A DNA stretch of 64,000 bases from Candidatus Aminicenantes bacterium (lineage in GTDB: Bacteria > Acidobacteriota > Aminicenantia > Aminicenantales > UBA4085), in the NCBI GenBank assembly GCA_963803915.1, contig CAWDOL010000014.1, forward strand, positions 99,987 to 163,986, in the 5' to 3' direction. The position numbers and the translations under genes were made by a program. Of this stretch, positions 2,606 through 61,706 are shown in pieces (position 1 is the first letter of the stretch; the number at the start of each line of letters is the position of its first letter). The notes under the pieces were generated by a model. That model was not told where the DNA came from and made no database searches. It was given only the letters and a program-made list of their open reading frames with translations.

Positions 2606-2758
2606 CGAAAAACGCCCTCCGCGTTCACGGCTTGGGAAATTCGGGCGGGAGGAAAGAGCGAATCGCGCGGCCCGCCCGAAGGGTAAAAACTCATGTTTTT
2701 GTATCTTCATGTGAACAAAAAATATTAGAATCTTAAGATTTTTTATGAATCATGCAGG
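2606..2758. other. AT-rich convergent intergenic spacer with a small A/T-tract hairpin motif (gcccgaagggtaaaaactcatgtttttg), shared with 46208-46236.
   Basis: Sharp GC drop relative to flanks. Lies between two convergent stops (2605 + and 2759 -). The motif recurs after the outer-membrane receptor gene at ~46210. Confidence 0.4.
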
Positions 2759-4480: not shown

Positions 4481-6415
4481 GCGAACAGCGGATCGGCAAG
4501 TACGTCGTCATCGAGGAGATCGGCCGCGGCGCCATGGGCGTCGTCTACAAGGCCCTCGATCCGCTCATCGACCGCGTCGTGGCCGTCAAGACCATCCGCT
4601 TCGACATGTATCGCCAATCCCGAACAGCGCGAGGAGGCCCAGAAGCGGTTCCTGCGCGAGGCCAAGTCCGCCGGCCAGCTGTCCCATCCCCACATCGCGA
4701 CCATCTACGAGGTCGGCGAGGACCAGGGCCAAGCCTTCATCGCCATGGAGTACATCGAGGGCCGCAGCCTGGAAGCCTGGCTGGCCGAGAAGCAGCGCTG
4801 GCCGGTCGAAGAGGCCGTCCGGTTCATCATCGAGGTGGCCGAGGCCCTGGAGACGACCCACCGCAAGAACATCGTCCACCGCGACATCAAGCCCGGCAAT
4901 ATCCTGGTCGACGCCGACGGCCACCCCCACCTGGTCGACTTCGGCATCGCCCGGATCCCGGCCTCGACCCTGACCCAGACCACGGCCGTCCTGGGCACGC
5001 CGTTCTATATGGCGCCCGAGCAGGTCGCGGCCCGCAAGATCGACCACCGGGTCGACATCTTCGCCCTGGGAGCCATCTTCTACGAGATGCTGACCCTGGA
5101 GAAGCCGTTCACCGGCGACAACCTGACCACGGTCGTCTACAAGATCATGAACGAGGAGCCGCCGCCGCTGCGCCAGTTCTCGGCCAACCTGCCGCAGGGG
5201 CTCGATCCGATCATCCGCAAGATCCTGGCCAAGGACCCCGACTCCCGCTATCCCTCCTGCCGGGCCCTGGCCAACGACCTGATCCGGTTCGCCGAGGAGG
5301 CCGGGTTCGAGACCGGACGCAAGCCGCAGGCCGAAGCTTCGCTGACCGAGACCAGGAAGATCAAACCGCTGACGGCGGCCAAGCCGGCGAAAACGAAGCC
5401 GCAGGGGCCGGCCGCCTCGCGCAAGCCCCTGCTGATCGTCGGAGCCGCCATGGCCGCGGTCGTCGTCGTCGCGGGCGGCCTCCTGCTCTTTACCAAGAGC
5501 GACAAGGGGCAGCCCGGCCCGACGATGGAGACTCCGGCGGTCGTCGACCCGGGCGCCGGCGAACCGTCCGCCAAAGCGGAGGACAAGCCCGAGGCCGGGA
5601 TCGAAAACAAGCCCGAAAACAAGCCCGCGGACAAGCCCGAGGACAAGCCAGCCGTCAAGGCCGCGGACAAGCCCGAGGACAAGCCCGAGAGCAAATCCGC
5701 CTTCCGCCTCTTCGACCCTACCACCGCGGGCGGGACCGTCAAGCCACAGAACCGGCCCGCTGATCCCGGGGCGGAGTCCAAGCCGGCGACGGTACCGGCC
5801 GTGAAAACGCCTAAACCGGCCCCCGACGCCGGCAAACCAGCGGTCAAGGTCGATCCGAAGGCGGGCAAACCCGACGAGAACAAGCCGGTGGAGCCGGGGC
5901 CGACGGACGCGGCGGCCGAGGCCGCGGCCCGCGCCGCCCAAGCTTGGGCCAAGGGGGACGGCAACGGGGCCATGGCGGCTATCCGCGAAGCGCTGAAGAT
6001 CGACCCCGAGAACGCGGCCGCCAAGTCGTTGGCCCGCGACATCGCCCTGCGAGGGGCCGAAGCCGAAATCCAGACGCTCGTCGACGGCTACCTGGCCGGC
6101 TTGAAAAAGGACGCGCTGGCGGCCTTCTACCAGGCCAGCGCAACGTCCGCTTTGGCCGGGCGCCTCAAGGGCGACCTGGCACTCATGGACAAGGTCTACG
6201 ATAAGTTCAACGGGACCGTGGGCGAGGTCAAGCTCGACTCGCGCAACGCCCAATACCCCCGCTTCGCCGTGCGGGCGTCCTTCCCGCACACGATCACCGG
6301 CCGCAAACGGTCCAACTGGAAGAACGAAACGATCTTCCAGGGCGTGTACACCTGGACCCTGGAGAAGGACGGAGGCCGCTGGATCATCTCCGGCCTGAAC
6401 TTTGAAGCCCGCTGA
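4477..6415 (+). CDS. Hanks-type Ser/Thr protein kinase with TM helix, K/P/E-rich repeat linker and C-terminal NTF2/SnoaL-like domain (one apparent frameshift ~4615)
   Basis: IGRGAMGVVYKA...VAVK in frame 1, then HRDIKPGNILVD, DFGIA, GTPFYMAPE in frame 2. TM helix LLIVGAAMAAVVVVAGGLLLF. Repeat DKPEAGIENKPENKPADKPEDKPAVKAADKPEDKPESK. C-terminal NTF2-like fold (WTLEKDGGRWIISGLNFEAR). Confidence 0.8.
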
Positions 6416-9586: not shown

Positions 9587-9743
9587 AATTGGGGGACACC
9601 ATACGTAATTCCCGAATACATTTGTTTACGCAGGGGGGGCCTGAATTGGGGGACGAGCTCGGCCGTCCTCATATCCGTGCATTCTTTGCTTTTCTTGATG
9701 GGGGACACCATACGTAATTCCCGAATACATTTGTTTACGCAGG
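9587..9743. repeat. Intergenic repeat cluster: two 44-bp direct copies (gggggacaccatacgtaattcccgaatacatttgtttacgcagg at 9591-9634 and 9700-9743) around an aattgggggacgagctcggccgtcctcatatc motif. Same family as the elements at 59444-59615 and 60233-60402.
   Basis: Direct sequence identity between copies. Motifs are shared with the other two loci. Lies in the divergent promoter region between the GT2 gene and the PLP-decarboxylase gene. Confidence 0.75.
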
Positions 9744-23609: not shown

Positions 23610-23757
23610 CAGAGTCTCCGTTCTTTTCTTGGGCCTTATTATACGGGACTCGGCCGCGTCGTCACAGGCGGCAAGAAGACTCTCTCTGACCGATTAGAAA
23701 AGCAGAATTCGAGAAGTTATTTTGGCTTAAGGGCGAGGGGCATGGGAGGCAAAACCC

Positions 23758-23875
23758 ATCGACGAGGGAGCGGGCATGGTTCCCTGCCCTTGGCAGGGAG
23801 AGCGACCGAGTCGGCCGGAGCGAACGCCCTCGCTGGGGGCGTGAGCGTGTTTTGCCTCTCATCCCCGAGCCCCCT
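23758..23875 (+). repeat. ~110-nt structured element, copy 2 (same family as 14958-15070)
   Basis: gacgagggagcgggcatggttccctgcccttggcagggagagcgaccgag...gaacgccc-tcgctgg-gggcgtg. Lies between the lepA stop and the mtnA start. Confidence 0.5.
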
Positions 23876-46109: not shown

Positions 46110-46314
46110 CCTGATTATTCACGAGTCGAGAGGGCCGTAGATGCAAGGCGCGGAGGGTGACGCTGTGCTAGTCGCACTGCGAACCCTTCGCAACGAAGCA
46201 GATGCGGTCGGATCGGCTTGCCCGAACGGTAAAAACTCATTTTTTAAAATCTTGTTCGCTTATACCGAGTCGAGATCGTCCCATACATGCTCGGGATGAG
46301 CGAGGCAAGTACCG

Positions 46315-55361: not shown

Positions 55362-56149
55362 GACGAAATCGCCGCCTCCTCGTCCCCGCCGTTCTCCTCG
55401 CCGTCCTCTGCGCCTGCGCCGCGGCCGGGCCCGGCCCCCAGACAAAGCCCCGGCTCCTGCGCTACGAGGTGGTCAAGGCGTACCCGCACGACCCATCCGC
55501 CTACACCCAGGGCCTGCTGTGGCGGGAGGGTGTTCTCTACGAGAGCACGGGCCAGTACGGGGAATCGACGCTGCGCAAGGTCGATCTGGAAACGGGCAAG
55601 GTCCTCCAGAGAAGCGACCTTGCCCGGCAGTTCTTCGGCGAAGGCCTGGCCCTTCTGGGGGACAAGCTCTACCAGCTGACCTGGGAGTCCGGGCTCGGCT
55701 TCGTCTACGACCGGGCCACCTTCCGCCGCTTGTCCACGTTCACCTACTCGACGGAGGGCTGGGGCCTGGCCGTCCTGGGCAAGGACCTGGTCATGAGCGA
55801 CGGCTCGAGCATCCTCACCGTCCGAGACCCCGAAACCTTCGACTTGCTGCGCCGCATCCGGGTAGAGGACGAACGGGGCCCAATCATCTACCTCAACGAG
55901 CTCGAAGTCATCGACGGCGATATCTACGCCAACGTCTACCAGACTGACCGTGTGGTGATCATCGACCCGGCCACCGGGAAGGTCAAGTCCGAGGTCGACT
56001 TCACCGGCCTCCTGCCGGCGGCCGACCATCACCCGAGCGTCGACGTCTTGAACGGCATCGCCTGGGACCCCAAAGGGAAGCGGCTGTTCGTCACCGGCAA
56101 GAATTGGCCCAAGCTGTTCCAGGTCAAGCTGGTCCCGGCAAGCCGATAG
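55358..56149 (+). CDS. Glutaminyl-peptide cyclotransferase (beta-propeller 'plant/bacterial type' glutamine cyclase)
   Basis: Lipoprotein-type signal (LLAVLCAC). YEVVKAYPHDPSAYTQGLLW...LYESTGQYGES...QLTWESG..F.YD. Confidence 0.7.
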   Translation: MRRNRRLLVPAVLLAVLCACAAAGPGPQTKPRLLRYEVVKAYPHDPSAYTQGLLWREGVLYESTGQYGESTLRKVDLETGKVLQRSDLARQFFGEGLALLGDKLYQLTWESGLGFVYDRATFRRLSTFTYSTEGWGLAVLGKDLVMSDGSSILTVRDPETFDLLRRIRVEDERGPIIYLNELEVIDGDIYANVYQTDRVVIIDPATGKVKSEVDFTGLLPAADHHPSVDVLNGIAWDPKGKRLFVTGKNWPKLFQVKLVPASR

Positions 56150-56505
56150 ACTGCCAGCGAACCACTACTCGATTCCGGGAAAAGCGGTCCGGAGTGCCGG
56201 CCCGGCAACGCTTTGGTAGTCCTCGCTACGACCGGCGCTTCGCCCGTCGTTGTGAGGGCGGCTTCGGTTTTTTCACGCCTTTTTTCGCTTCTCTTCTCGG
56301 CGCCTGCGGAACTCCGCATGTTTGCTCGAGACGAATGGCATGCCCACCCACTCTATCGCGCTACCGATTGATCTTCTCGTGCTCAAACATCCCTCGGCGC
56401 CCGTTGGGTTCCCTCGAAGAGCGGCAAAAAAAGGCTAAAACCTCGCAATTTCGCCGTTGGCCGGCACCCCGAACCGCTTGGATTTCCCGGAATCAGGAAC
56501 ATAAC

Positions 56506-59443: not shown

Positions 59444-59615
59444 AATTGGGGGACACCATACGTAATTCCCAATTCGATTTCGTCAATTTTATTGGACGTT
59501 TCAGAAGCCGCGACTCCCAGCGGAGATAGCTTGGCGGCGTCAACAAAACAATTCGGGAGTTGTGTATGGTGTCCTCATATCCTAGCGGATATGAGGGCTG
59601 CCGAGCCTGTCCCCC
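59444..59615. repeat. Nested-palindrome intergenic element (family member 2)
   Basis: aattgggggacaccatacgtaattccc at 59444-59470, its partial inverse aattcgggagttgtgtatggtgtcc at 59550-59574, palindrome tcatatcctagcggatatgagg, then gctgccgagcctgtccccc. Confidence 0.75.
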
Positions 59616-59632
59616 TATTATAGAACCCGCTC

Positions 59633-60229
59633 ATGCGCTATTATGAATTCATGTCCCCCCGCCTGTTCAAGACGGCCGCGGCCTGGAGGGCCTGGCTCAC
59701 TCGCAACGGCGGCCGGGCGACTGAGATCTGGTTGGCCTACTTCAAGAAAACCTCCGGAAAAAAGTCCGTCACCTACCAGGAAGCGTTGGACGAGGCCCTT
59801 TGCTACGGCTGGATCGACTCGATCGTGAACAGCCTGGACGCCGAAAGGTATATGCAGCGGTGGACGCCGCGAAAGCCGACGAGCGTCTGGTCGGCCCGCA
59901 ACAAAGCCCGCGTCGCCGAGCTTATGGCCGCCGGACGGATGGCGGAGCCCGGACTGGCCGCCGTGCGCCTGGCTAAGAAAAACGGCTCTTGGGACAAGCT
60001 GACCGAAATCGAGCGGATCGGCCGCGGCGGAGGCCCGCCCGACGAGGTGGTCGCAGCTATTTCGGCCTATCCCGGGCTGGGCAAGAAATTCGAAGCCCTC
60101 CCGGCCTCCAAGCGCAAGATGTTCGCCTATTGGGTGGCCTCGGCCAGGCGCCCCGAGACACGCGACCGCCGCATGGCCCAGATGGAGGAGCTCATCGACT
60201 CGAACCGGCTTCCCGGTTTTAAAAAATAA
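59633..60229 (+). CDS. YdeI/OmpD-associated family protein
   Basis: CYGWIDSIVNSLDAERYMQRWTPRKPTSVWSARN...KFEALPASKRKMFAYWVASA. 198 aa. Confidence 0.65.
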   Translation: MRYYEFMSPRLFKTAAAWRAWLTRNGGRATEIWLAYFKKTSGKKSVTYQEALDEALCYGWIDSIVNSLDAERYMQRWTPRKPTSVWSARNKARVAELMAAGRMAEPGLAAVRLAKKNGSWDKLTEIERIGRGGGPPDEVVAAISAYPGLGKKFEALPASKRKMFAYWVASARRPETRDRRMAQMEELIDSNRLPGFKK

Positions 60230-60232
60230 TAG

Positions 60233-60402
60233 GGGGACAGGCTCGGCAGTCCTCATATCTGGTAGGATATGAGGGCACCATACATAACTCCCGAATTATT
60301 TCCGTCAACTTTAGATGACGTGTAAACAAACGTATTAGGGAATTATGTATGGTGCCCTAATCGCCTATCGGCGATTAGGACTGCCGAGCCTGTCCCCCAA
60401 TT
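60233..60402. repeat. Nested-palindrome intergenic element (family member 3, most complete)
   Basis: Outer IR gggggacaggctcggcagtcc ... ggactgccgagcctgtccccc. Inner IR gggcaccatacataactcccgaat ... attagggaattatgtatggtgccc. Two 22-bp palindromes. Terminal tcccccaatt. Confidence 0.8.
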
Positions 60403-60484
60403 CAATTAGGAGGACGACGATGAGATGCTTCAGCAGCGGCAAGGACAGTCGTTTCGAGACCACCGTCATGTTCGAGCCGGCCGG

Positions 60485-61706
60485 ATGAGCGGCCCGATGC
60501 GACGGCGCGAGGCGCTTTGCGGGCTGGCCGGCGGGGCGGCCGCGCTTCTAACGCCCCGAGCGGGAACGGCAGCCCAGGCTCCCGCGTCCCCGGAGCCGTG
60601 GCCGCGGGTGGCCCGCGACGGCATGGGCTATCGCCGGCTGGGCCGCACGGGGCTGATGATCTCCGAGATCGTCCTGGGCGGCAGCCCCTTGCCGGACGAG
60701 AGCCTCGTTCGGAGGCTGATCGACCGCGGCGTCAACTACATCGACACCTCGGACAGCTACGAGAACGGCAACTGCGAGCGCAAGGTCGGCCGCCTGTTCA
60801 AAGCCGTGGGACGAGATAAGCTCCACGTACATGCCCGCTTCCACCTGCAGGGCTCCTGGACGGCGGACACGATCGTCGGCCTCGGTCGAGGGCAGCCTGC
60901 GCCGGCTGGCCACCGACCGGGTCGAGGTCTTGGGCATTCACGGCGTCGAGTCGCCCGACATCGTCGACGATCCTCGAATCCAGGACGCCTTCCGCAAGCT
61001 GGAGGGCAAGTACGCCTCCCGCGGCCTGACCTGCCATGTCAACGCGGCCGCGGTCATCCCCAAGGCCGTGGCCTCCGGCCTTTACGACATGGTCCAAGTC
61101 GGCTACAACGTCTTTGACCTGCAGCCGGGCGAGAAACCCGTGCGGGCCTATCCCGACTACCTCGGCGAATCCGGCCTGGGCCGGATGATCGACCTCTGCC
61201 GGGACAAGGACATCGGCGTCATCGGGATGAAGGTGCTCAAGGTGGGGGGACAGCGCCAGGTGCTCGACCGCTGGCGGACGGAGGGCGGCTCGCCCCAGGC
61301 GGCCATGATCAAATGGGCCTTGTCCAATCCGCGCCTTTCCGCGGTCGTGATCGAAATCCTCAACGACCGCGAGATGGAGGAGGACCTGGGCGCGTTGGGC
61401 GCTTCGCCGACGCCGGCAGAACGGAAGCTCCTGGCCGCCCATATCGCCGAGAACAGCCGGGCGTACTGCCACATCTGCGGCTCATGCCGGGCCGCCTGCC
61501 CGGAAGGCCGCCCCTTGAGCGAGATAGCCCGCGGGCTGATGTACGCCGAGAGCTATGGAAAGACGTCCCGGGCCCGCGAGGTTCTGGCGGCCGCAGTCGC
61601 GGCCGGATATCCCGCCTGCCGGGACTGCGGAGCCTGCGAGACGGCCTGTCCCTACGGCCTGCCCGTGCGCGAAACCGCCCGCCGGGCGGCGCGGTTTCTG
61701 GCTTAA
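60485..61706 (+). CDS. Tat-signal aldo/keto reductase fused to a C-terminal 2x[4Fe-4S] ferredoxin-like domain (frameshift ~60830)
   Basis: MRRREALCGLAGGAAALL. AKR motifs MGYRRLGRTGLMISEIVLGG, IDTSDSYENGNCE. C-terminal CHICGSCRAACPEG and CRDCGACETACPYG (CxxCxxCxxxCP x2). Confidence 0.65.

What the first reader, a model, noticed from the sequence alone, without database searches (positions are those of the whole stretch)
59444..60402. ydeI-like gene bracketed by two nested-palindrome repeat elements (possible mobile or regulatory cassette)
Elements at 59444-59615 and 60233-60402 share the same building blocks. These are a terminal aattggggga/tcccccaatt, the motif gggggacaccatacgtaattccc with its inverse, the motif gggggacaggctcggcagtcctcatatc with its inverse, and 22-bp perfect palindromes (tcatatcctagcggatatgagg; taatcgcctatcggcgattagg). 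They abut the start and stop of a 198-aa YdeI/OmpD-associated-family gene. The downstream element ends exactly at the SD of the next gene. This looks like either a MITE-pair-mobilised gene cassette or a shared palindromic operator or structured-RNA system.
Basis: seen in the sequence. Interest (0 to 1): 0.65.

Follow-up and report, generated by a model that had tools for sequence, protein, structure and literature searches.

The report
Transposase-linked palindromic repeats flanking resident ydeI
The two nested palindromes around ydeI are real, but they are ordinary copies of a widespread bacterial "junk" repeat family tied to a small tyrosine transposase, inserted separately on each side of a gene that was already there.

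Summary
Element A is at 59444-59619 and element B at 60228-60402. They share termini, arms and hairpin modules, and B folds far better than shuffled sequence (z = -14). A third, fragmentary locus lies at 9587-9742.

The cassette interpretation fails. In seven orthologous loci ydeI keeps its place in a ydeI-ybjQ-reductase operon. Relatives show empty sites on both sides, and the B site occurs in four states: plain core, extra module on one arm, on both arms, and a deletion remnant.

The arm GGGGACACCATACGYAAYTCCC recurs in at least 120 metagenome contigs as inverted pairs, singlets and clusters. In seven loci, including three MAGs assigned to other phyla, the same terminus flanks an IS200-like (HUH/Y1) tyrosine transposase gene on both sides. 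That protein's closest curated family and only solved relative is the REP-associated transposase. The arm fits the GGGGWSAS motif published for "TIRYT"-associated repeats.

The elements are therefore REPIN-like, non-autonomous repeats: a new member of a known kind.

Local effects are inferred, not shown. A displaced the -35 box of ydeI's leaderless promoter. B places a hairpin of about -110 kcal/mol inside the operon transcript.

A 38-nt hairpin module, always at GTATGGTG^TCCCCC and seen only in this lineage, is the one unexplained feature.

The parts
59444..59619 (.). Element A (176 nt). Head plus left arm AATTGGGGGACACCATACGTAATTCCC at 59444-59470. Loop at 59471-59554. Right arm GGGAGTTGTGTATGGTG at 59555-59571. 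38-nt E2 module at 59572-59609 (hairpin hp1, stems 59573-82 and 59587-96). Tail TCCCCCTATT at 59610-59619.
   Evidence: present only in the window and, degraded, in L119
59639..59644 (+). TATTAT, the retained -10 box of the ydeI promoter, 6 nt before ATG 59651 (leaderless geometry). The ancestral -35 TTGACA position is now occupied by the right end of element A.
   Evidence: alignment A1; five relatives keep TTGACA-N17/18-TAAGAT-N6/7-ATG
59633..60229 (+). ydeI (OmdA/YdeI family, PF13376). It is a resident gene, and its likely true start is ATG 59651.
60228..60402 (.). Element B (175 nt). Head at 60228-60237. E2 module on the left at 60238-60275 (hp1 type). Left arm CACCATACATAACTCCC at 60276-60292. 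Loop at 60293-60337. Right arm GGGAATTATGTATGGTG at 60338-60354. E2 module on the right at 60355-60392 (hp2, stems 60356-65 and 60370-79). Tail TCCCCCAATT at 60393-60402.
   Evidence: orthologous states in L120, L250 and L119
9587..9742 (.). Third locus, in the divergent intergenic region between a GT2 glycosyltransferase and a PLP decarboxylase. Two direct singlet units (9587-9633 and 9700-9742; the shared 43 nt from GGGGGAC are identical) flank a truncated head plus E2 fragment (9644-9676).
60420..60488 (+). 22-codon remnant of ybjQ (MRCFSSGKDSRFETTVMFEPAG*), with SD AGGAGG at 60408-60413. Its stop overlaps the reductase ATG (ATGA). This shows that B sits inside an operon.
60485..61706 (+). 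Aldo/keto reductase with a 4Fe-4S domain, the last gene of the operon, split by a frameshift near 60879-60880.

Best explanation
A and B are copies of a dispersed, non-coding palindromic repeat family. Its terminal arm, (A/T)T(T/C)C-GGGGACACCATACG(C/T)AA(C/T)TCCC, is the same sequence that flanks, in inverted orientation, the genes of a widespread ~220-aa HUH/Y1 tyrosine transposase subfamily (IS200-like, sister to RAYTs; the published name is TIRYT). The elements are therefore REPIN-like arm dimers: non-autonomous elements that most likely spread in trans when that transposase recognises the arm on single-stranded DNA. That last step is inferred by analogy with TnpA-REP and IS200/IS605.

The two copies inserted independently into a resident operon, ydeI-ybjQ-aldo/keto reductase.
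1. A plain core dimer landed between the ydeI stop codon and the ybjQ ribosome-binding site.
2. Later, a lineage-specific 38-nt hairpin module (E2) appeared in its right arm and then in its left arm.
3. Element A landed upstream, displacing the -35 box of the leaderless ydeI promoter, and also gained E2 in one arm.

Bracketing of ydeI is a consequence of the repeats preferring short intergenic gaps, not of cassette mobility.

Likely side effects are inferred. B is transcribed within the operon mRNA as a very stable intercistronic hairpin that can affect mRNA decay or downstream translation. A alters ydeI promoter strength.
For: Multi-copy family:
- Three loci in the 64-kb window.
- 58 complete inverted pairs of 44-308 nt (53 of them 44-177 nt), plus singlets and clusters, with up to 5 arms in 13.9 kb.
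- The arm is a discrete unit: conservation collapses outside about -7 to +20.

Transposase link:
- L242 carries a 235-aa ORF between inverted arms. It scores 46 bits on Pfam Y1_Tnp (cut-off 23).
- Its best and only NCBIfam hit is the REP-associated tyrosine transposase model, at 76 bits.
- Its only PDB relative is TnpA-REP 4ER8, with the HUH and Tyr motifs aligned.
- Homologues lie next to arms in L145, L198 and L199.
- In Methylomirabilis, Nitrospiraceae and Bipolaricaulota MAGs the gene is bounded by GGGGACACCATAC...(G/A)TATGGTGTCCCC.
- L242's flanking arms match L120's left arm at 23 of 23 positions, the window's A left arm at 22 of 23, and A's right arm at 20 of 20.
- The arm fits the GGGGWSAS motif reported for TIRs flanking TIRYT genes, which form repeat families of singles, dimers and clusters, including in Acidobacteria (PMC3733652).

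Resident gene and polymorphism:
- Synteny holds in seven loci.
- The A site is empty with an intact TTGACA-N17-TAAGAT promoter in L120, L121, L122, L250 and L251.
- The B site is empty in L121-L123 and L251, where TAG is followed directly by GGAGGACGAC and the spacer is 10-11 nt.
- Filled states at the B site: core only (L120), core plus E2 on the right (L250), core plus E2 on both arms (window), deletion remnant (L119).

Sequence-level, not structure-level, conservation of the arms fits a protein recognition site.
Against: - No transposase gene lies in the 64-kb window, and none of the top 120 homologues is on the 629-kb source contig. A cognate enzyme in this genome is therefore unproven.
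- All nine transposases tested fall just below NCBIfam's curated RAYT cut-off (66-76 bits against 80).
- The arms lack the GTAG/CGTC tag and the strong self-complementarity of classical REPs.
- Mobility is inferred from polymorphism between lineages that differ by about 15% at the protein level, not observed directly.
- Genome-wide copy number could not be measured.
- The E2 module and A's extra 39-nt GC-rich loop segment have no demonstrated origin.
Confidence: 0.8

Rival explanations
1. Composite, MITE-pair-mobilised cassette: the two elements act as the ends of a unit that moved ydeI into this position.
For: ydeI is bracketed by 76-nt, 92% complementary inverted repeats 604 nt apart. The transposase genes of this family are themselves bracketed by inverted arms.
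Against: ydeI is in the same operon context in seven loci, several with no element on one or both sides. The two sites have different phylogenetic distributions (B in four lineages, A in two). The ancestral ydeI promoter and the stop/SD junction are recognisable at the empty sites.
Confidence: 0.02
2. Dedicated cis-regulatory system for ydeI and its operon: the palindromes are operators for a dimeric regulator, or a structured RNA selected for function at this locus.
For: The predicted structures are extremely stable. A overlaps the promoter, and B lies between cistrons 5 nt from an SD. The two E2 hairpin variants differ at three stem positions, all compensated.
Against: The same arms occur next to unrelated genes in the window and in more than 120 unrelated contigs. 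Close relatives run the operon without them. Rfam has no family match. The arms show almost no covariation (311 paired cells against 294 +/- 10 in shuffles). The structure is equally good on both strands.
Confidence: 0.05
3. Immobile, host-maintained repeats: relics of an ancient burst that now persist only as genome-structuring or mRNA-stabilising hairpins (as proposed for some REP/BIME), with changes arising by replication slippage and gene conversion, not transposition.
For: There is no transposase in the window. Stuttered, variably truncated heads look like slippage. The copies here are diverged (79-85% between A and B, and between B's own arms). The L119 remnant is a simple microhomology deletion.
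Against: Occupancy differs between close relatives at two sites, and the E2 module is gained arm by arm. The two 43-nt singlets at 9591-9633 and 9700-9742 are identical. The arms are tightly linked to a highly conserved transposase across phyla.
Confidence: 0.12
4. Classical DDE-transposase MITE (Correia/ERIC/Nezha type).
For: It has inverted terminal arms of about 22-27 nt, a size of 90-180 nt, an AT-rich flank (AATT), and a possible TAG duplication at the B site.
Against: There is no consistent target duplication at A or in other loci. The TAG/AG at B is also required for the stop codon and the SD. Free singlet arms and direct-repeat singlets exist. The only gene found between arms is a Y1 transposase.
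Confidence: 0.03

Closest known systems
TIRtrons and TIRYT-associated TIR repeat families (Di Nocera et al. 2013, PMC3733652)
   Same: A RAYT-like HUH/Y1 transposase gene is flanked by long inverted repeats instead of GTAG REPs. The TIRs share GGGGWSAS (here GGGGACAC). The TIRs also form moderately abundant families of singles, dimers and clusters. Acidobacteria are among the described hosts.
   Different: I could not see the published TIR sequences (figures are not held), so identity with a named family is untested. The host here resembles Aminicenantes/Acidobacteriota. The extra 38-nt hairpin module nested in the arms is not described there.
REPINs and RAYTs (Bertels & Rainey 2011, PMC3116915; Bertels et al. 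2017, PMC5581495)
   Same: Two inverted short repeats separated by a spacer form a long hairpin. The elements are non-autonomous. The cognate tyrosine transposase gene is flanked by the same repeats. They are extragenic and multi-copy.
   Different: There is no GTAG tag. The single arms are barely self-complementary. The transposase scores just under the curated RAYT threshold. Whether the transposase is single-copy and vertically inherited, as Group 2/3 RAYTs are, is untested.
E. coli BIMEs (mosaics of REP types and linker motifs; from my own knowledge)
   Same: A modular mosaic: two kinds of unit share a common head (head+CCATAC... and head+GGCTCGGCAG+hairpin) and combine in different ways at different loci.
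   Different: The sequences are unrelated. Binding of host proteins (IHF, gyrase) is not testable here.
Correia/NEMIS elements of Neisseria (functional analogy only; from my own knowledge)
   Same: Palindromic repeats of about 100-150 nt, co-transcribed with neighbouring genes, that remodel promoters and form long RNA duplexes.
   Different: Correia elements have a TA target duplication and no Y1 transposase link.
IS200/IS605 and their palindrome-associated derivatives
   Same: HUH/Y1 transposase chemistry, no clear target duplication, and dependence on DNA secondary structure.
   Different: IS200/IS605 ends are asymmetric subterminal hairpins, not inverted repeats. Here the gene is bounded by true inverted arms.

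Membership tests
TIRYT-associated TIR repeats (TIRtron family, PMC3733652) | A tyrosine (HUH/Y1) transposase gene flanked by long inverted repeats that are not GTAG REPs | tested here: met
   L242, L145, L198, L199 and L244, L246, L248. This was tested in related loci, not in the window.
TIRYT-associated TIR repeats (TIRtron family, PMC3733652) | The TIR carries the GGGGWSAS motif | tested here: met
   The arm begins GGGGACAC in the window and in 96-99% of 180 distinct arms. The motif is quoted from the paper.
TIRYT-associated TIR repeats (TIRtron family, PMC3733652) | The same TIR forms a dispersed family of singles, dimers and clusters | tested here: met
TIRYT-associated TIR repeats (TIRtron family, PMC3733652) | The cognate transposase is encoded in the same genome as the repeats | not testable with these tools
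   Only 64 kb of the 629-kb contig is available. There is no hit in the window or among the top 120 homologues.
Classical REP/REPIN-RAYT | A 20-40 nt unit that is itself an imperfect palindrome, tagged by GTAG (or CGTC) | tested here: not met
   The arm consensus has no GTAG or CGTC tag. The single arm offers at best a 5-7 bp stem around an 11-17 nt loop (reading).
Classical REP/REPIN-RAYT | Inverted doublet with a spacer, folding into one long hairpin | tested here: met
Classical REP/REPIN-RAYT | The transposase belongs to the curated RAYT family | tested here: inconclusive
   NF047646 is the best and only hit, but at 66-76 bits against a cut-off of 80 in nine proteins. The only PDB relative is TnpA-REP 4ER8, E = 3e-4.
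Classical REP/REPIN-RAYT | The RAYT is single-copy and vertically inherited | not tested
   No complete genomes were available.
DDE-transposase MITE | Fixed-length target-site duplication | tested here: inconclusive
   A possible TAG/AG duplication at B is confounded by the stop codon and the SD. None is seen at A or in other loci.
DDE-transposase MITE | A parent IS with a DDE transposase and the same termini | tested here: not met
   The only coding sequence found between arms is a Y1 transposase.
Composite transposon or mobilised gene cassette | The gene travels with its flanking elements into new contexts | tested here: not met
   Synteny is conserved, with empty sites on both sides.
Integron gene cassette (attC) | Cassette boundary at a GTTRRRY core site, with R''/L''-L'/R' architecture | tested here: not met
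   The boundaries read AAT(T/A)GGGGGACA and TGTCCCCC(A/T)ATT, with no GTTRRRY.
Integron gene cassette (attC) | An integron integrase nearby | not tested
   The window's genes were not screened for intI. This became moot given the synteny result.
Described structured RNA (Rfam 15) | A match to a covariance model at its gathering score | tested here: not met
   No hits in the whole window. At E <= 10 there are only chance hairpin (miRNA-type) matches far below threshold.

The most novel reading that the evidence does not exclude
The 38-nt E2 module (a 10-bp perfect hairpin plus RCTGCCGAGCCTG) may itself be a tiny second-order mobile element that inserts site-specifically into the terminus of the first repeat, always at GTATGGTG^TCCCCC. 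In this reading it is a parasite of a parasite that targets the transposase's recognition or cleavage region.

The evidence is compatible with this but does not prove it:
- E2 is absent from all arms outside this lineage, including every transposase-flanking arm.
- It occupies 0, 1 or 2 arms at one orthologous site in close relatives.
- It sits at the identical position in four independent arms.
- It exists in two hairpin variants that differ only by compensated stem changes.
- At locus C it occurs with a head but without the CCATAC arm.
Probability: 0.3. Interest if true: 0.5.

Novelty: new member of a known kind. Interest (0 to 1): 0.3.

Why it matters
It removes a false lead: this is neither a gene cassette nor a dedicated regulator.

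It also documents, in poorly studied Acidobacteriota/Aminicenantes-like bacteria, a REPIN-like repeat family whose 13-nt terminus GGGGACACCATAC travels with one very conserved Y1 transposase subfamily in MAGs assigned to at least four phyla. That pairing gives a defined DNA-protein pair for biochemical study of TIRYT-type enzymes, whose recognition rules are unknown.

The orthologous series at the B site, and the replacement of a promoter -35 box at the A site, are clean natural examples of how such repeats remodel operons. The nested E2 module could be a new layer of intragenomic parasitism if it proves to be mobile.

Tried and rejected
1. The genome-contig scan with the 18-mer CTGCCGAGCCTGTCCCCC returned 118 loci, mostly Collinsella. 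None carried any other module. The pattern was too short, and the only genome scan was wasted.

2. I suspected that A's extra 39-nt loop segment (59500-59538) is captured ancestral promoter DNA (GGCGGCGTCAACA against GGCGGCGTTGACA). Local alignment scores are not significant: 95 of 2000 and 211 of 2000 shuffles score as well. Rejected.

3. I suspected that stuttered, truncated heads mark one precise cleavage point coinciding with the E2 insertion site. The breakpoints are spread over positions 6-12 of the head. Not claimed.

4. Loci with a common interior after a solo arm (L130, L131, L162, L165, L170, L200) looked like a parent IS. The gene is a Uma2/DUF820 endonuclease, not a transposase. 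Left as a side note.

5. The L177 arm pair 716 nt apart encloses no transposase homologue.

6. Rfam at gathering and at permissive thresholds gave nothing.

7. A literature text search for the arm sequence gave nothing relevant.

8. Viral contigs gave 0 hits for both the arm and E2.

9. The promoter/terminator scan found no plus-strand promoter and no intrinsic terminator in or next to the elements.

10. Looking up the source contig by exact protein returned only a 2-kb Logan contig without DNA, so genome-wide copy number could not be obtained.

Full report
**1. What is in the sequence**

Element A spans 59444-59619 and element B spans 60228-60402. B is a complete nested palindrome. Its parts, in order, are:
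- head AATAGGGGGA
- a 38-nt module, here called E2 (CAGGCTCGGCAG plus a 10-bp/4-nt hairpin)
- inner arm CACCATACATAACTCCC
- a 45-nt AT-rich loop
- inner arm GGGAATTATGTATGGTG
- a second E2, with a different hairpin
- tail TCCCCCAATT

A has the same plan but lacks E2 on its left arm (GGGGGACA|CCATACG...). Its loop is longer, at 84 nt.

The repeats are far beyond chance. The outer 18-mer occurs three times exactly, against 0.28 expected for matches allowing up to three mismatches. The inner arm occurs six times with up to three mismatches, against 0.03 expected. A's right half and B's left half are 92% complementary over 76 nt. B folds to -109.7 kcal/mol as RNA (z = -14.2) and equally well as DNA on the other strand (z = -14.5). 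The elements are 45-50% GC in a 65-72% GC background.

A third locus at 9587-9742 lies between divergent glycosyltransferase and decarboxylase genes. It holds two singlet units whose shared 43 nt are identical, plus a truncated head-E2 fragment. The family is therefore modular and not confined to the ydeI locus.

**2. The gene is resident, not a cassette**

The bracketed ORF is a genuine OmdA/YdeI-family gene. Its closest named relatives are in Acidobacteriota and Candidatus Aminicenantes MAGs.

Seven orthologous loci were recovered, with 74-86% protein identity. All keep the neighbourhood ydeI-(ybjQ)-aldo/keto reductase with 4Fe-4S domain-ferritin-amino-acid permease.

In L121, L122/L123 and L251 the ydeI stop codon is followed directly by the ybjQ Shine-Dalgarno sequence, with a spacer of 10-11 nt. 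The ybjQ stop overlaps the reductase ATG. This is a tight operon, and these loci are true empty sites for B.

Upstream, five relatives (L120, L121, L122, L250, L251) share TTGACA-N17/18-TAAGAT-N6/7-ATG, a leaderless-type promoter with no element. These are empty sites for A.

**3. Occupancy history**

The right junction of the B-site element (CCCCCAATT-N-AGGAGGACGAC-ATG) is shared by the window, L250, L120 and L119, so the insertion is orthologous. Its internal state differs between lineages:
- L120: plain 92-nt core (GGGGGACACCATAC...GTATGGTGTCCCCC), with ybjQ intact
- L250: plain left arm, and E2 (hp2) in the right arm, identical to the window's
- window: E2 in both arms
- L119: only cGGGACAGTCTCGGCAG|TCCCCAATT, a deletion across a GTCC microhomology that still shows E2 had been on the left

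Element A occurs only in the window and, degraded and without E2, in L119.

The two elements therefore arrived at different times. E2 was added arm by arm, always between GTATGGTG and TCCCCC.

In the window, L119 and L250, ybjQ has collapsed to a 22-codon in-frame remnant that keeps both ends of the gene. In the window the reductase is also frameshifted.

No unambiguous target duplication exists. A possible TAG/AG repeat at B cannot be separated from the need for a stop codon and an SD.

**4. What the family is**

A metagenome scan with GGRCACCATACRYAAYTCCC hit its 120-locus limit, in soil, peat and sediment assemblies.
- The arm is a discrete unit of about 27 nt. Positions -1 to +17 are nearly invariant, and there is no conservation beyond about -7 or +20.
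- It occurs as 58 inverted pairs of 44-308 nt (53 of them 44-177 nt) with very variable interiors. It also occurs as singlets, as tandem stutters of the head, and several times per contig.

In L242 the two arms enclose a 235-aa ORF.
- It is a Y1/IS200-like transposase (Pfam 46 bits, cut-off 23).
- Its only NCBIfam match is the REP-associated tyrosine transposase model (76 bits, cut-off 80).
- Its only solved relative is E. coli TnpA-REP (4ER8), with the HUH motif and the catalytic tyrosine region aligned.

Homologues with 58-67% identity abut arms in L145, L198 and L199.

The subfamily is very large. The search returned at least 8000 proteins at E <= 1e-20, having hit its candidate cap. Members in MAGs labelled Planctomycetota, Nitrospiraceae, Bipolaricaulota, Methylomirabilis and Alphaproteobacteria are 67-69% identical to the query. 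In three of these MAGs the gene is again bounded by GGGGACACCATAC about 40 nt before the start codon and by (G/A)TATGGTGTCCCC immediately after the stop codon.

L242's flanking arms match L120's left arm at 23 of 23 positions, the window's A left arm at 22 of 23, and A's right arm at 20 of 20.

Eight further members score 66-75 bits on the RAYT model. This is a sister group sitting just outside the curated RAYT family.

**5. Comparison with what is known**

Di Nocera et al. (PMC3733652) described RAYT-like genes flanked not by GTAG REPs but by long inverted repeats ("TIRtrons", encoding "TIRYTs"). They noted that many such TIRs share GGGGWSAS. Some form moderately abundant repeat families organised as singles, dimers and clusters. 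A sharply defined TIRYT group is found in Acidobacteria. GGGGACAC fits that motif, and every structural feature matches.

The arrangement also matches the REPIN concept of two inverted repeats forming a hairpin, mobilised in trans by a flanked tyrosine transposase (PMC3116915, PMC3337134; abstracts). It fails the classical REP definition, which requires a GTAG tag and a self-palindromic unit.

It is not a DDE-type MITE. It is not an integron cassette. It is not a described RNA family.

Across 48 distinct arm pairs, pairing at the variable positions barely exceeds the shuffle control (311 against 294 +/- 10). The conservation is of sequence, as expected for a protein recognition site, and not of structure.

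**6. How it most likely works**

Shown:
- family membership
- linkage of the arms to the transposase gene
- insertion polymorphism
- the positions of A and B relative to promoter, stop codon and SD

Inferred:
- The transposase acts on the arms in single-stranded DNA, by analogy with TnpA-REP and IS200/IS605.
- A cognate enzyme exists in this genome.
- B is transcribed within the ydeI operon mRNA as a very stable intercistronic hairpin 5 nt from the next SD.
- A changes ydeI promoter strength, because the -35 box is gone while the -10 box (TATTAT, 59639-59644) and the leaderless spacing are kept.

The scan found no plus-strand promoter or intrinsic terminator associated with the elements.

**7. 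What remains odd**

E2 is seen only in this lineage. It always sits at the same point in the arm. It comes in two hairpin versions that differ at three stem positions, all compensated. At locus C it occurs attached to a head without the CCATAC arm. It may be an independently mobile mini-element that targets the arm terminus, or it may have spread by local gene conversion. The data cannot decide between these.

A's extra GC-rich loop segment is unexplained. The idea that it is captured promoter DNA failed a significance test.

**8. Verdict**

The cassette and regulatory interpretations are not supported. The elements are REPIN-like, TIRYT-associated palindromic repeats inserted on both sides of a resident gene. 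This is a new member of a known kind, of modest interest, with one possibly novel sub-feature (E2).

Noticed in passing
window 60420-60488: A 22-codon mini-ORF (MRCFSSGKDSRFETTVMFEPAG*) is an in-frame collapsed ybjQ. It keeps the N-terminus (MRCxxxGKD) and the C-terminus (...EPAG*) of the 151-aa gene found in L121, L123 and L251, and it still overlaps the reductase start (ATGA). The same collapse is seen in L119 and L250. L120 keeps ybjQ intact.
   Followed up: yes
window 60485-61706 (break near 60879-60880): The aldo/keto reductase with 4Fe-4S domain is split by a frameshift. The intact 407-aa L119 orthologue maps to two reading frames. This is either a pseudogene or an assembly error.
   Followed up: partly
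window 13072-13232 (+) and 56333-56493 (-): A non-coding stretch of about 160 nt occurs twice at 81% identity. Each copy ends in GGGAGG-N-ATG upstream of a small ORF with no Pfam match (13226-13576 + and 56029-56319 -). It contains CCAACGG twice and has no Rfam match. It may be a shared 5' leader or an undescribed RNA motif.
   Followed up: partly
window 2668-2707 and 46214-46253; 14935-14991 and 23733-23789: Two further short repeats unrelated to the finding (83% and 75% identity). The first reads CGGC..GCCCGAA.GGTAAAAACTCAT.TTTT.
   Followed up: no
window 5572-5703: A tandem 12-nt repeat (about 8 or more units, CAAGCCCGAGGA-like), probably encoding a KPED-type low-complexity protein segment.
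   Followed up: no
L130, L131, L162, L165, L170, L200 (e.g. L162 728-1589): A solo arm followed by an identical ~100-nt leader and a Uma2/DUF820 endonuclease gene (PF05685) appears behind different left flanks. This suggests that a unit of arm plus Uma2 gene is itself multi-copy or mobile.
   Followed up: partly
L145 ~5050-5900, L159, L169, L239, L198, L199: The outer heads of many arms are stuttered: several tandem partial copies of flank plus GGGGAC(ACC...), truncated after 6-12 nt of the head. This happens especially around the transposase genes and looks like repeated abortive copying or slippage at the terminus.
   Followed up: partly
proteins P0121-P0240; loci L244, L246, L248: The ~220-aa Y1 transposase subfamily is unusually conserved: 63-84% identity among the top 120 hits, and 67-69% in members from MAGs labelled as five different lineages. 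Each of the three fetched MAG loci has the same 13-nt termini. This implies either strong constraint or frequent horizontal transfer.
   Followed up: partly
window 59546-59621 and 60226-60301: The 76-nt, 92% complementary inverted repeats 604 nt apart could in principle mediate inversion of the ydeI segment together with its -10 box. The one other assembly of this locus (a Logan contig) has the same orientation, and no evidence for inversion was seen.
   Followed up: no
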